The notes below the pieces were generated by a model that ran no database searches, had not been told where the DNA came from, and saw only the letters and a list, made by a program, of their open reading frames with translations. From Eledone cirrhosa (taxonomy: Eukaryota): a stretch of DNA of 64,000 bases. The stretch is from positions 16,678,001 to 16,742,000 of the forward strand of contig OZ024741.1 in the NCBI GenBank assembly GCA_964016885.1, read 5' to 3'. Each line of letters starts with the position of its first letter. The first letter of the stretch is position 1. The position numbers and the translations under genes are program-made. Positions 1 to 64,000 of the stretch are shown here, piece by piece.

Positions 1-946
1 ATACTTCCCTCTATTACCCGTACCACAAACCTAACGAGTCCCTTAAATATATTAATGTTAATTCAAACCACCCCCAAAACATCACTGATAACCTAGTAAA
101 AAGCGTCTCTATTAGAATATCTGGCCTCTCCGCGAACAAAGATATTTTTAACGCATCTGCCTCCTACTACAATGACGCCCTCGCCCGTAGCGGATTTAAA
201 GAAAAGATAACATACCTAGAAACCACCGCAAGATTGCAGAGGAGGAATAGACATAGGCAGATTAGCTGGTACAACCCTCCCTTCAATAGAGAGGTCTCTA
301 CTCCGATAGCTAGGATTTTCTTCACTTTGCTGAAATTACACTTCCCCATACAACATAGGTACCACACCATCTTTAATAAGAACACAATAAGACTCTCCTA
401 CTCCACCACACCTAACCTAGCTAGGAATATAGCCAACCACAATTCTAAAAAAATAAATAAGCCAACCACCTCCGAACCCAATCCCCGGACTGGGGCTCTG
501 TGTAATTGCCTAAATAAGGAAGCATGCCCACTTGAAAACAAATGCCTCACAAATGATATCGTATAAAATGCGATGTCATCTCAGGCACCGATGATTGCAA
601 AAAAACTTACATCGGCATGACCTCCAACAACTTTAAGACCCGTTGGTATGCCCATACCCACTCCTTCAGAAGACCGGACAAATCAAACCAGACAACACTC
701 ACCTCCTATGTTTGGGACCTCAAAAGGAACTCCACCTCCTTCACGCTTAAATGGAAAATACTCCAGAAAGCGCGTTCTTACAACGGAGGACACAAGGGCT
801 GCGACCTTTGTATTTCAGAGAGCTACGAAATTTTATTCGCCAAGGGCCCGCTACTGAACAAACTCTCTGAACACTGCCCGAACTGCATGCACAAGAACTT
901 TGCAACTTTCAAACACTTTAAGCCAGTGTTAAAGCCCGATGGCTAA
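1..946 (+). pseudogene. Naiad-like PLE family 1, unit 1: 3' part of RT-thumb/GIY-YIG ORF (5' end outside window), 1-nt frameshift at ~565
   Basis: Near-identical to 8541-9486 (offset 8540). Motifs WYNPPF and CNCLNKEACPLENKC. Restoring one base in gtata[t]aaatgc gives VYKC...KTYIGMT (GIY-YIG), then CDLC and CMH. Confidence 0.9.
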
Positions 947-1089
947 AAACGACCTCCTCCTATTGGCCCCTATACCTCCTTCCCACCCTACCCCCACCCC
1001 TCCTCAACCTGAAATACGGCCACTATGGTTATGTGAGTACCTCTTACCTATCTACATTTTCTGCCTGTAGAGGTGTTTTTATGTGCCTG

Positions 1090-2125
1090 CGTATATGCGT
1101 ATATTTATTGAGTACTTATTTATTTGTATATATTTGTGTGTATGTGTGTATATGTATGTGTATGTATATGTATGTGTATGTATGTGTATGTGTGCACATG
1201 TGTATATGGGTATGTGTGTGTATATGTATATATATATATATATATATATATATATATATGTATATATATATATGTGTGTATGTGTATATATGTATGTGTG
1301 TATATGTATATATATATATATATATGTGTGTATATATATGTATATATATATATGTGTGTATGTATGCGTATGTATGTATGTGTATATATATATATATATG
1401 TATATGTGTATATGTGTGTATATGTGTATATATGTATATGTGTGTGTGTGTATATGTGTGTATATATATGTGTGTATATGTATATATTTATATATATGTG
1501 TGTGTGTATATATATGTGTGTATATATGTATGTGTGTATGTATGTGTATATATATATGTATATGTATGTGTATATATATATATATATATATATTTATATG
1601 TATGTGTATATATATGTATATATATATGTATATATATATATACATGTATATATATATATACATGTATATATGTGTGTATATGTATATATGTGTATATATG
1701 TATATATATATATATACATGTATATATATATATACATGTATATATGTGTGTATATGTATATATGTGTATATATGTATATATATATATATATATATATATA
1801 TATATATATATGTATATGTGTATGTGTGTATGTATATGTGTGTGTGTATATATATATATATATATATGTATGTATGTATATATGTGTGTGTGTATATATA
1901 TATATATATAGAGAGAGATGTGTGTGTGTATGTGTGTGTGTGTGTATGTGTGTGTGTGTGTGTGTGTGTGTATATATATATATATATATGTATGTGTATA
2001 TGTATGTGTATGTATGTATTTATATATGTATGTGTGTGAGTGTGTGTATGTGTGTGTGTATATATATATATATATATATATATATATATATATATATATT
2101 TGTATATGTATATATATGTATATAC
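1090..2125. repeat. Compound (TA)n/(TG)n microsatellite within the PLE 3' UTR
   Basis: Direct reading; GT-rich on + strand. Confidence 0.95.
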
Positions 2126-2129
2126 ATAT

Positions 2130-5100
2130 ATCTCTCTCTCCCCCTTCCCCTCTCTCTCTCTCTCTTAGCTACACACACATATATATATATATAAGATAAA
2201 TTCCCGTTCATGTTTATTCACTTTCGCCAAACAATTGCTGCTTCAATTATTCCTACTACGGTGTACCCATGTAATCGTAACGTTCACATTTTTCCTATCT
2301 ACTCCACGCCACAATTTCGTACATAGTCCAAACATCAAATCTCGCAAAATCCGAAATCTGTATTTTTTTGTTATTTATTTAAGTTTAAATACGGTGTTTT
2401 TGTCGTATTGAACAGAACAAATCTTGCAGTTTTGCTTTTTGTTAATCGCTTGTTAAACATTCATAACCTTCCAGCTAGCTACACCACACCCCTCCCGCCC
2501 GCCCCCACACACCACCATTCTTAATACGTGGACCAATCATAAGCCAGAGACCCCCCCCCACACGCATCACCATTATTATAAGCCAGAGACCCCCCCCCCC
2601 AACGCATCACCATTATTATTATTACGCGGACCAATCATAAGCCAGAGGCCTATACTATCGCTTGCACGGTTGCCTTCGATATATGATGGATGGATGGACG
2701 GACTGCGGAATCCTGGAGAGTGGAAGGGAGAGAAAAATCTGGACGCTCAGAGCGAAAATGCCAAAGTTAAAGTCAAATTCACCTCGTGGACGAGAATGCG
2801 AGCACTCCTCTTTGTTTCGCCCGCGGATGGCTAACATAACCCCATCTCCCCCCGCCCCCCACCACCCCCACCCTCCAAACGCAATCCAAAACTTCAGAGT
2901 TGGTACCATAAATGTAGGCACCCTAAAGGGTCGCGCTAACGAGGTTGTAGAAATGCTTGAACATAAGGAGGTCGATGTTTGTTGTATTCAAGAGACCAGG
3001 TGGAGGGGTGGGTCTGCTAGATTCATTGAGGGTAAAAAACGATGTTATAAGCTTTTCTGGGTGGGAAACGACGATGGGCTGGGTGGAGTAGGAATCATGG
3101 TAGCAGAAAAGTGGGCAGATAAGATAATAGACGTGAATAGAGCGAACGACAGAATAATTAAAATACGACTTGTCCTCAATAGAACTACGGTGACAGTAAT
3201 ATCTGCGTACGCACCCCAATCCGGACTGCCCGGCACTATAAAAGACAGATTCTATGAGACACTGTTGCTAACTACCTCCCAAATATCTGACAGTGACTAT
3301 ATAATTATTGCAGGCGACCTAAATGGTCACGTTGGACAACATTGTGACGGCTACGACGAAATCCATGGAGGCTATGGGTTTGGTACTAGAAATGAGGAAG
3401 GCTCCAGAATCCTGGAATTCTGTGATGCAAATAACCTAACTATCTGTAACACTAACTTCAAAAAACGTGACAATCACCTGATCACCTATAGATCCGGGGA
3501 ACACACAAGCCAGGTAGATTATATCCTTACCAGAAGACGTGACAGAGTGTCTGTTGTAAACACTAAATCCCTCCCCCATGAAGAATGCACCTCCCAACAT
3601 AGACTGATAATTAGCGACCTCATAGTCAGGACGAGACGTACTCGACAGCAGAAGAGGACTATCCTCAGGAGAAAAATATGGAAGCTAAAGGACCCCACAG
3701 CCAAAAATAAATTTCAAAACATATTACTTGATGCTTTCGACAGTAAGGAAGAACATTTAGAGTCGGACAATATAGAGGGACAGTGGGAATTTCTGAAAGC
3801 AAACCTGCTGTTGGCGACAGACGAAGTCTGTGGCTGGAGCAGGCCTGTAGGCAGGAGGAGAGTAACATGGTGGTGGAACAGTAAGGTGGAGGGGTCAATT
3901 AAGGCCAAAAAGCAGGCTTGGAAAGTATGGCGGGATGGGGGAAGTAGAGTAGACTATCAAGTGGCCAGGAGGGAAGCTAGGAGAGAAGTGTACTTAGCAA
4001 GAAGGGAAGCTGAGGAAAGAAAGTTCAAGCATGTTCTACAACGCGATGACCAAAAACGTGAGGTGTTCAGGATTGCTAGGCAATGCGTCAAGGAAAACCG
4101 TGATATTGTCGGGGAGAAGTGTGTACTTAACGATGATGGCATACTTGCCATCACCGACACTGATAAGAAGGTAGCTTGGAAGTGTCACTATGAAAGGCTA
4201 CTAAATGAGGAGAATAAATGGGAGAAAGACAGTCTCCCCCATATCGACCCAATAGAGGGACCAGCAGTGTTAGTCGAGGGGAGTATAATAAGTAAGGCAA
4301 TCAAGGATATGAAGACGGGTAAGGCGGCTGGGCCTTCGGAAATAGTTGCTGAGATGCTGAAGGCATCTGGCACGGTGGGACACACCATGGTCACCCGCAT
4401 AGTTAACCAAGTCGTACAGAATGGGGTTGTTCAGAAGGACTGACATAGCAGCATCATCGTTAACTGTTATAAGGGTAAAGGAGACGCCCTAGATAGGAGT
4501 AACTATAGAGGCATTAAATTAATCGACCAGGTCATGAAGGTCACGGAAAAAGTAATAGCGCAACTAATCAGAGAGAGAATTGACCTAGATGAAATGCAGT
4601 TCGGGTTTGTGTCAGGCAAAAGTACCACAGACACTCTTTTCATTGTACGACAACTACAGGAGAAGTACCTAGCTAAAGGTAAACCCCTCTACTTAGCTTT
4701 TGTCGACTTGGAGAAAGCCTTCGACAGAGTCCCTCGCTCCATTATCTGGTGGGCTCTTAGAAAACTAGGCGTTGAGGAATGGCTTGTGAGGGCTATACAA
4801 GCCATGTATAAAGAAACAGTAAGCAAGGTTAGAATTAACAACGAATATAGTGAAGAGTTTAGCGTAAAAGTTGGCGTCCATCAGGGCTCTGTTCTCAGCC
4901 CCCTACTATTTATTATTGCCCTTCAGGCTATAACAGAGGAGTTCAAGACCGGCTGCCCATGGGAACTCCTATACGCAGACGACCTGACACTCATAGCGGA
5001 ATCAATGGCCGAGCTAGAGAAGAAATTCCAAACATGGAAGCACGGCCTAGAGTCAAAAGGACTTAAAATTAACCTGGCTAAGACCAAAGTTCTAGTTTGT

Positions 5101-63145: not shown

Positions 63146-63341
63146 AACGAAGGAAATGTGGTAAGGAACCAGGTGGACCATAACGCACCAAAGTACTCAA
63201 TACTTAGGGTAGTAGAGTGGGTAATAGGAACCAGTAAGACCCCGACGGCTGAGCTCAAACCGTTTCGACGGCTAATTCTGGACAGTACAGAATTAGCCGT
63301 CGAAACGGTTTGAGCTCAGCTGTCGGGGTCTTACTGGTTCG
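63146..63341. mobile_element. Inverted-repeat PLE pseudo-LTR remnant with the 3' half of a hammerhead
   Basis: Arms of ~53 bp (63228-63280 and 63288-63340) around a 7-nt loop; GAAA-cggtttgagctcagctg-TC. The left extension shares gtactcaatac with the 41293 remnant. Confidence 0.65.
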
Positions 63342-63420
63342 TATATATTATATATATATATATATATATATATAATATATAATATATATAGACAGTTGTT
63401 TATAAAGGAAAAAAATAAAA

Positions 63421-63708
63421 TAAGACTCGCTGGTACGCCCACACAAATCTAACGAAACTACACTCGCCGCCCACATCTGGCACCTTAAAAGGAACTCCAT
63501 CGCCTTCAAGACCCAATGGAGACTACTCCAGAGAGCGCGATCCTACACGGGAGGCCATAATTGCTGTGACCTCTGTATCTCCGAGAGCTATGAGATTCTA
63601 TTCGCCAAAGGCCCTCTCCTCAACAAGATCTCGGAACACTCCCCTAATTCCATTCACAAGAACTATGCAAATTACAAAAACTACAGACCCACCCGGCCCC
63701 CCGATTGA
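63421..63708 (+). pseudogene. Naiad-like GIY-YIG C-terminal fragment, sister of family 1; 3' UTR runs to the window end
   Basis: KTRWYAHT..TTLAAHIWHLKRNS..RARSYTGGHNCCDLCISESYEILFAKGPLLNK, closely similar to 617-946. Confidence 0.85.
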
Positions 63709-64000
63709 CCCCCCCCCATATCACCACCCCACCCCGCCCCCATCCCAATTCCGTCCCTCCATCTCTCATTATTACCCTCTTTCCTCCCCTCTATCTCTCA
63801 TTATTACCTTCTTTCCTCCCCTCCAGGTCTTATATATTGTGTTGTATGCCTCTGAGTAAGGTTCCGTGGCCGCACACACAAATTCACGTATATACCTGCT
63901 CATGTTTGCATACGTGCAGTTATGAACTGCTGCACGCACACGTTCGTGATTCTTTGATTTTTTTATCTATTTATCTGTATATTTATTTATTTATTTATTT

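What the first reader, a model, noticed from the sequence alone, without database searches (positions are those of the whole stretch)
1..64000. Multi-class transposon nest built on (TA)n landing sites
Seen: most resolvable junctions of RTE LINEs (3 families), PLEs (3 apparent clades), a Gypsy element (TATA TSD), a Helitron (A|T) and two SINEs abut TA repeats. The Neptune 1 5' junction near 47755 is an exception. These elements use unrelated nucleases (APE, GIY-YIG, DDE integrase, HUH). Known: microsatellite-specific elements exist singly. Inference: either convergent targeting of TA arrays (cruciform, unwound or break-prone DNA) or a host safe-harbour locus that traps every class.
Basis: partly seen in the sequence, partly recalled or inferred. 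Interest (0 to 1): 0.75.

Follow-up and report, generated by a model that had tools for sequence, protein, structure and literature searches.

The report
Two retrotransposon groups build TA nests
This pile of jumping genes does sit in TA repeats, but across the genome only the Penelope-like and RTE retrotransposons favour TA repeats, a habit largely known already; the other classes likely landed there because the spot is AT-rich or by chance.

Summary
In detail: 31 of 37 mapped junctions abut (TA)3 or more, 25 abut (TA)4. The four-nuclease convergence does not. Flanks of other copies in the same 3.0-Gb genome, against a background of 3.7% (any site) or 15% (AT/TA-start sites):
- Penelope-like elements (PLEs): 23/30, 26/30, 12/18, 24/27, 14/15.
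- RTE LINEs: 39/90 at 3' ends, 18/32 at 5' ends.
- Helitron: 14/26, no more than AT-richness predicts (18.2).
- Gypsy: 1/30. SINE2: 3/62 (uses AAT sites).
PLE (TA)n preference is published, including for octopus. The RTE bias extends a published TA-type signature; this scan noted both before on other DNA of this genome. About 5 kb of the window's TA/TG arrays are PLE 3' UTRs, and five insertions sit in them, so nests likely feed themselves. An RTE hit a pre-existing (TA)4 in a PLE coding region (empty in 7/7 paralogues). A single safe-harbour locus is not needed. One thing is unexplained: 12 of 14 families, and 28 of 29 coding segments over about 100 kb, face one way, versus 14 of 31 neighbours elsewhere. 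Mostly known biology; modest interest.

The parts
1..2130 (+). PLE-A (Hydra-type) 3' half of ORF and TG/TA-rich 3' UTR; part of an 8.1-kb tandem duplication
2131..6321 (+). RTE-A LINE copy 1, (TGA)n tail, inserted in a 7-nt TA run of the PLE-A UTR; same insertion repeated upstream of the window
6322..10071 (+). Rest of PLE-A UTR, pseudo-LTR end, and next PLE-A unit (ORF 7208-9486 with one frame change near 9100; TG/TA UTR from 9665)
10072..14253 (+). RTE-B LINE, near full length, short 5' inversion, in the PLE-A UTR
15405..21535 (+). Gypsy LTR retrotransposon, LTRs about 430 bp, TATA target duplication, in the PLE-A UTR; ORFs interrupted
21536..22559 (+). End of the PLE-A UTR and pseudo-LTR, stopping at one of the family's two fixed 3' ends
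22560..23409 (.). Interrupted (TA)n array; one of ten pure arrays totalling about 8.0 kb
23410..24369 (+). RTE-B, 5'-truncated, TA arrays on both sides
25107..29814 (+). RTE-A with open 1033-codon frame (26360-29461): APE, RT, PHD
29883..31387 (.). Two non-coding repeats with inverted two-armed copies elsewhere and TA-rich flanks; likely PLE-mobilised
31707..37679 (+). Helitron, A|TC...CTAG|T, Rep and PIF1 helicase in broken frames
38394..39774 (+). RTE-C, 5'-truncated, TA arrays on both sides
40553..41115 (+). RTE-A 3' fragment between TA arrays
41294..41498 (.). Two-armed PLE-A pseudo-LTR insertion, both ends pointing out into TA
42498..45882 (+). PLE-B (Hydra-type), 5'-truncated
43615..45174 (+). 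RTE-B inserted in a (TA)4 run of the PLE-B coding region; no target duplication
   Evidence: (7 of 7 paralogues show the empty run)
45900..46249 (+). SINE1: tRNA-like head plus RTE-derived 3' part and (TGA)n tail
46281..47772 (+). PLE-C (Hydra-type), truncated at both ends
47773..59325 (+). Neptune 1 PLE (ORF 47819-50198); its TG/TA 3' UTR is split by PLE-E and Neptune 2 and resumes by 58900
50700..53165 (-). PLE-E, third PLE lineage (CX4CxxC linker, 24-33% identical to the Neptunes; Nematis-like by eye, not resolved)
53259..58519 (+). Neptune 2 PLE with inverted 5' pseudo-LTR and TG/TA-rich UTR
59326..62544 (.). 3.2-kb interrupted (TA)n array
62546..62735 (-). SINE2, tRNA-like; family inserts at AAT sites with 7-17-bp duplications
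63148..63342 (.). Short hairpin-shaped non-coding repeat, TA-flanked in 12 of 14 sampled copies
63391..64000 (+). PLE-G 3' fragment, 78% identical to PLE-A

Best explanation
The window is a nest of mobile elements in which two retrotransposon groups, Penelope-like elements and RTE LINEs with their SINE, insert at TA repeats across the whole genome, while the Helitron follows AT-richness and the Gypsy and SINE2 likely hit TA here by chance. Shown: the class-by-class flank counts, one empty site, and TG/TA arrays inside PLE 3' UTRs. Inferred mechanism: PLE GIY-YIG nucleases with a Zn-finger-like linker cut long (TA)n, and reverse transcription starts at fixed RNA positions, two of which carry their own TATATA that can pair with the cut target. 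RTE APE nucleases nick short alternating TA runs, and the (UGA)n tail pairs with the AT end. Because PLEs carry up to about 1 kb of TA/TG repeat in their UTRs and every insertion leaves TA on both sides, each event likely supplies new targets in already dispensable DNA, so nests grow by positive feedback.
For: Background from 79 blind 10-kb stretches: 3.7% of positions, 14.6% of A|T sites, 15.3% of AT/TA-start sites abut a perfect (TA)4. PLE 3' ends: PLE-A 23/30, PLE-C 12/18, Neptune 2 24/27, PLE-B 26/30, PLE-E 14/15. Median run at the junction: 26 nt for Neptune 2, 3.5-7.5 nt for RTEs. RTE 3' ends 39/90 (p 2e-10), 13/34 in the blind sample (p 0.001). RTE 5' truncation points, which cannot come from the tail: RTE-A 13/20, RTE-B 5/12. 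RTE flanks alternate purine/pyrimidine more than AT-matched sites (0.803 vs 0.712), Helitron flanks do not (0.839 vs 0.870). Gypsy 0/14 and 1/16, with varied 4-bp duplications. SINE2 3/62, 47/62 end in AAT. Empty site: (TA)4 in 7 of 7 PLE-B paralogues. All 30 Neptune 1 loci carry the TG/TA UTR. Among 29 other copies, 2 have a nested insert with the UTR resuming and about 4 more run into another window family within the UTR; the 26.6 kb aligned on the coding side are uninterrupted. Tandem copies of Neptune 2 and PLE-C continue with TATATAC exactly where insertions end.
Against: Over half of RTE 3' ends (51/90) are not in a perfect (TA)4, so this is a bias, not specificity. With exact AT matching the excess per family is weak (p 0.26, 0.09, 0.05; blind sample 0.03). 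The 90 RTE loci and 30 PLE-A loci are the first hits on contig C1, not a random draw. Flank counts record survivors, so selection against insertions elsewhere contributes an unknown share. Whether long arrays precede or follow insertion is not resolved. PLE-A and PLE-B share only 1-2 nt with the target at their ends. The model does not explain the shared orientation, since (TA)n is symmetric and RTE flanks show no TG/CA polarity (21 vs 23).
Confidence: 0.8

Rival explanations
1. Convergent targeting by all four nuclease types, through a DNA structure (cruciform, unwound or broken TA DNA) that any integration system exploits.
For: Helitron 3' flanks are TA runs in 14/26, 3.7 times the A|T rate. 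PLEs prefer long runs. The one measurable RTE insertion has no duplication and lost at least 1 nt. Long AT repeats form non-B DNA and break (PMC11797062, search listing only).
Against: Gypsy 1/30 and SINE2 3/62 are at background. The Helitron excess vanishes when AT content is matched (14 vs 18.2 expected; 5' side 6/21 vs 6.7). An RTE used an 8-nt run, likely too short to extrude.
Confidence: 0.07
2. The locus is a host trap, such as a one-strand piRNA source or a long transcribed unit, which keeps elements of every class in one orientation; TA preference only sets the exact landing spot.
For: 17 of 18 coding segments in the window and 28 of 29 from -31 to +69 kb are on the plus strand; 12 of 14 families (p 0.013); adjacent segments in blind stretches agree in only 14 of 31 cases. 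Only one local duplication inflates this. Coding TE cover is 47% in the window, 33% in the flanking 200 kb, 9% in background.
Against: The block edges were chosen after looking. Orientation flips in neighbouring blocks (13 of 13 minus from +109 to +146 kb). No host gene or RNA data were seen. The TA junctions need no special locus. With tens of thousands of windows, a family-level p of 0.013 is not rare.
Confidence: 0.2
3. The elements seed the TA arrays after insertion (tail or duplication slippage) instead of finding them.
For: RTE tails are (TGA)n and run into TA in phase (63/90 flanks start TA). RTEs are known to generate microsatellites (PMC2887409, abstract). Short TA targets that expand after insertion are described for maize TAFTA (PMC5907723, section 19).
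Against: TA also flanks random 5' truncation points. The empty PLE-B site already has (TA)4 and did not expand after the insertion. Complex array types match on both sides of several copies.
Confidence: 0.15

Closest known systems
Hydra, Neptune and Naiad Penelope-like elements with (TA)n insertion bias (Craig et al. 2021, PMC8557442; passages, section 11 and supplement rows read)
   Same: Same motifs in PLE-A/B/C (RWR, DKT, CxCX5C, CxxC, CxH) and CX4CxxC linker in the Neptunes and PLE-E; tandem and inverted pseudo-LTR ends; (TA)n preference, listed there for Hydra-1_Obim and three octopus Naiads.
   Different: Here five families are counted against a genomic background, and their UTRs are shown to carry TA/TG arrays that receive later insertions; I saw no such statement in the parts read.
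RTE-clade LINEs and SINEs with the Tn-TA insertion signature (PMC6007223 abstract and Discussion; PMC13295347 passages)
   Same: Single APE-RT frame, microsatellite tail, junction at T/A, tail matching the first target bases.
   Different: These RTEs carry a PHD finger after RT and favour alternating TA runs over 12 nt or more; the upstream T stretch was not seen (0 of 7 resolvable cases among 121 ends; too few to decide).
Helraiser Helitron target choice (PMC4778049, passages)
   Same: A|T insertion and strong AT-rich preference, most marked 3' of the element (here 25 of 26 flanks have 11-12 A/T in 12 nt, against 23%).
   Different: None found; TA repeats are simply the commonest AT-rich DNA in this genome.
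SaTar microsatellite-targeted MULE arrays of guayule and rice (PMC5907723, abstract and section 19); MuTAnT (PMC4486113, listing only)
   Same: Unrelated families stacked end to end in shared microsatellites.
   Different: Those are DNA transposons of one superfamily and not nested; this nest is retroelement-driven and deeply nested.

Membership tests
Hydra-clade PLE (PLE-A, B, C) | RWK-type and DKT motifs in the N-terminal RT region | tested here: met
   PLE-A has RIRWR at 7448 and SDKT at 7685; B and C are truncated before this region
Hydra-clade PLE (PLE-A, B, C) | CxCX5C linker, C-terminal GIY-YIG with CxxC and CxH, no CCHH | tested here: met
   All three motifs in A, B and C; Pfam GIY-YIG did not score these frames
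Hydra-clade PLE (PLE-A, B, C) | Insertion into (TA)n | tested here: met
   23/30, 26/30, 12/18
Hydra-clade PLE (PLE-A, B, C) | Placement in the Hydra clade on an RT tree; canonical hammerhead ribozyme | not tested
   No reference set built; hammerhead-like cores seen by eye only, no Rfam hit at E 0.1
Neptune-clade PLE (Neptune 1, 2) | RT, CX2-5CxxC linker, C-terminal GIY-YIG | tested here: met
   the linker is shared with Nematis, so the clade name rests on resemblance
Nematis-clade PLE (PLE-E) | CX2-5CxxC linker and tree position apart from Neptune | tested here: inconclusive
   Linker present, 24-33% identity to the Neptunes; no tree
RTE-clade LINE | One ORF with APE and RT, short-repeat 3' tail | tested here: met
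   245 relatives at E 1e-50 or better, many with the same PHD, none named to clade; clade label not tested by tree
RTE with Tn-TA signature | T stretch about 10 nt upstream of a duplication starting at T/A | tested here: inconclusive
   7 resolvable duplications among 121 ends, 0 with TTT
Strictly sequence-specific (TA)n LINE | Nearly all copies in the repeat | tested here: not met
   39 of 90 and 13 of 34
TA-microsatellite-targeting LTR element | Flanks enriched for (TA)n | tested here: not met
   0/14 and 1/16
TA-microsatellite-targeting Helitron | TA runs above the AT-matched A|T expectation | tested here: not met
   14 vs 18.2 and 6 vs 6.7; alternation 0.839 vs 0.870
One-strand piRNA cluster (flamenco-like; definition recalled) | TE-dense with most elements on one strand | tested here: met
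One-strand piRNA cluster (flamenco-like; definition recalled) | Long antisense transcript processed to piRNAs | not testable with these tools
   No stranded or small-RNA run was offered

The most novel reading that the evidence does not exclude
TA-seeking PLEs carry their own landing pads and so nucleate self-growing nests shared with TA-biased PHD-bearing RTEs, and the host has turned this roughly 100-kb one-way nest into a piRNA-producing trap that samples every class: a route by which a microsatellite ecosystem gives birth to silencing loci.
Probability: 0.15. Interest if true: 0.65.

Novelty: new member of a known kind. Interest (0 to 1): 0.33.

Why it matters
It replaces an apparent four-enzyme convergence with two measurable biases, and gives a likely reason why this TA-rich genome (about 4.7% of bases in perfect TA runs) is built of microsatellite-TE nests: at least 40,000 RTE-type ends and 12,000 PLE ends share one target type, and PLEs copy more of it. 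The intact RTE-A frame offers a direct test of how an APE nuclease acquires TA-repeat bias. The one-way orientation is the only feature that points to a host role.

Tried and rejected
DNA search of the genome with an RTE 3' end returned nothing because common words are skipped; exact patterns were used instead. The repeat finder was swamped by TA arrays. ARAGORN found no tRNA; Rfam gave only low-complexity microRNA matches below threshold. I first took PLE-A's end at 22559 as the only 3' end; the family has two fixed ends. I first counted the RTE-B at 43615 as off-target; the empty site is (TA)4. RTE-C 5' counts (8 of 30) are unusable as they stand: 9 rows ran past my truncated reference. The first PLE-E count was mis-anchored by 3 nt and was redone. 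Laying contigs of four public runs on 42510-45880 gave no haplotype-level empty site; one contig from another organism label bridges the RTE-B site in PLE-B, which is a paralogue, not an allele. Local duplication (one 8.1-kb unit) and TG/CA pad polarity were tested as causes of the shared orientation and rejected. The Tn-TA test was underpowered. The protein search gave no host or clade names, so the host is called cephalopod-like only by resemblance and from earlier scan notes. A fifth background batch of 200 kb was not obtained, so the background rests on 790 kb. Paper searches for TA-repeat bias of RTE LINEs in cephalopods found none; Repbase and most subscription journals are not covered, and bioRxiv supplements were closed.
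Full report
What was asked. I mapped the window, then tested each family at other copies in the same genome (G000, 3.0 Gb; window at C2:16,678,001-16,742,000). The host looks cephalopod-like; this is by resemblance and from earlier scan notes, not tested.

Anatomy. Pfam confirms three APE-RT LINE families with a PHD finger after RT, GIY-YIG PLEs, one Gypsy and one Helitron. PLE-A, B and C carry the motifs that define the Hydra clade in Craig et al. 2021. Neptune 1 and 2 and the divergent PLE-E carry the CX4CxxC linker. The window is nested. 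RTE-A, RTE-B and the Gypsy sit in the TG/TA-rich 3' UTR of PLE-A; PLE-E and Neptune 2 sit in the UTR of Neptune 1, which resumes by 58900 (17 of 30 Neptune 1 loci reach that part); an RTE-B sits in the PLE-B coding region. An 8.1-kb RTE-A plus PLE-A unit is duplicated across the left edge. Of 37 junctions, 25 abut a perfect 8-nt TA run and 31 a 6-nt run. Adjacent elements share arrays, so these are not independent.

Background. In 79 stretches of 10 kb taken blind at round coordinates, 3.7% of positions, 14.6% of A|T sites and 15.3% of AT/TA-start sites meet the 8-nt rule. Perfect TA runs cover 4.7% of bases on average; 5 of 79 stretches match or exceed the window's 14%.

PLEs. Exact patterns give 11,549 (PLE-A), 258 (B), 448 (C), 175 (Neptune 2) and 77 (Neptune 1) matches; 30 loci of each were read. 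TA at the 3' end: PLE-A 23 of 30 (three misses run on into the next unit), PLE-C 12 of 18 (12 rows that run on were set aside), Neptune 2 24 of 27 (own copy and two run-on rows dropped); PLE-B 26 of 30; PLE-E 14 of 15 terminal ends in the blind sample. The true 3' end of Neptune 1 was not reached, so it has no count. In Neptune 2 and PLE-C the tandem unit continues with TATATAC exactly where insertions end, which fits priming by pairing (inferred). This preference is published for Hydra, Neptune and Naiad PLEs, with Hydra-1_Obim and three octopus Naiads listed as (TA)n.

RTEs and SINE1. Patterns give 13,640, 11,677 and 15,024 matches (the last covers RTE-C and SINE1). In the first 30 loci of each, 15, 14 and 10 3' flanks meet the rule, 39 of 90 pooled (p 2e-10 against 15.3%); in the blind sample 13 of 34 (p 0.001). 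Resolved 5' junctions: RTE-A 13 of 20, RTE-B 5 of 12, SINE1 6 of 12. With exact AT matching the count excess is weak, but purine/pyrimidine alternation is clearly above matched sites (0.803 vs 0.712, exceeded in 0 of 3000 draws). Runs at RTE junctions are short (medians 3.5-7.5 nt) against 26 nt for Neptune 2. The RTE-B at 43615 entered a (TA)4 that is empty in 7 of 7 PLE-B paralogues. So RTEs are biased to TA runs, not specific. This resembles the published Tn-TA signature and tail-pairing model, though the upstream T stretch could not be confirmed.

Helitron, Gypsy, SINE2. The Helitron (57 and 55 matches) has T after 26 of 26 and A before 20 of 21 ends. Its 3' flank meets the rule in 14 of 26 (own copy and three duplicates dropped), but 25 of 26 flanks are 11-12 of 12 A/T, and AT-matched sites predict 18.2; the 5' side gives 6 of 21 against 6.7. 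This is the AT-rich 3' preference reported for Helraiser. The Gypsy (54 LTR matches) has 0 of 14 and 1 of 16 TA flanks, with varied 4-bp duplications (own LTRs and one duplicate row dropped). SINE2 has 3 of 62, ends in AAT in 47 of 62, and shows duplications of 7 nt or more in 20 of 38. Both are at background. An R4/Dong-type partner for SINE2 is a recalled guess, not tested.

Feedback. About 5.1 kb of the window's arrays are UTR-type TG/TA and 8.0 kb are pure interrupted TA. The UTR arrays are family-wide (30 of 30 Neptune 1 loci; the PLE-A loci long enough to show it). Among 29 other Neptune 1 copies, two have a nested insert with the UTR resuming after it and about four more run into another window family within the UTR, while the 26.6 kb aligned on the coding side are uninterrupted. 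This supports, on small numbers, the idea that PLEs bring landing pads for later elements.

Is the locus special? TA junctions do not need it. Yet the region is dense: coding TE cover is 47% in the window and 33% in the flanking 200 kb against 9% in background, with two 10-kb stretches that are 49% and 79% TA. No host gene was recognised among long frames in the flanks, by eye. Orientation is shared: 17 of 18 coding segments in the window, 28 of 29 from -31 to +69 kb (edges chosen afterwards), 12 of 14 families; neighbouring blocks flip. Blind stretches give 14 of 31. Duplication and pad polarity do not explain it. It could reflect transcription-linked selection, a piRNA source, or chance among many windows.

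Verdict. Observation confirmed; interpretation partly supported. Two target-primed systems share TA targets; the PLE half is in print and the RTE half extends a known signature (no paper on it for cephalopods). Earlier notes of this scan report both on other DNA of this genome. Papers seen: PMC8557442 passages, section 11, supplement rows; PMC6007223 abstract and Discussion; PMC13295347, PMC4778049, PMC9115989 passages; PMC5907723 abstract and section 19; PMC13282606 first third; PMC2887409 abstract; PMC4486113, PMC11797062 and the retrozyme preprint as listings only.

Noticed in passing
window -31 kb to +69 kb (G000:C2:16.65-16.75 Mb); also +109 to +146 kb: Blocks of co-oriented elements of unrelated classes: 28 of 29 coding segments plus, then 13 of 13 minus further on; not explained by duplication or repeat polarity.
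   Followed up: partly
G000:C1:7.2-9.4 Mb (hit lists): 65 of 75 RTE 3' ends lie on the plus strand, against 65 of 150 in the first 7.2 Mb; may be the satellite array named in earlier notes.
   Followed up: partly
window 557-566 and 9097-9106: Both PLE-A copies have the same frame change between linker and GIY-YIG; shared through duplication or possibly family-wide.
   Followed up: no
window 41294-41498, 53259-53625, 63148-63342, 29883-31387: Two-armed inverted insertions whose arms end at two different fixed points of the family, both in TA; hammerhead-like cores by eye.
   Followed up: partly
L305-L306 (about 55-30 kb upstream of the window): Roughly 13 kb of nearly pure TA repeat (49% and 79% of two 10-kb stretches).
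   Followed up: no
window 26360-29461: Intact RTE frame with a PHD finger between RT and the C-terminus; the same architecture is common among 245 relatives.
   Followed up: partly
window 15405-21535: Gypsy LTRs end in AA, not CA, in the copies where the end was found; internal (CAACAG)n repeat at 20625-20788.
   Followed up: no
window 62546-62735: SINE2 is very abundant (116 BLAST hits in 590 kb), often tandem, at AAT sites.
   Followed up: partly
L018, L026, L028, L029: The same complex TA-derived minisatellite unit lies on both sides of an RTE-A copy.
   Followed up: no
about 29 kb upstream and 163 kb downstream of window start: Frames resembling Tc1/mariner transposases (recalled resemblance), a class whose TA target was not tested.
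   Followed up: no
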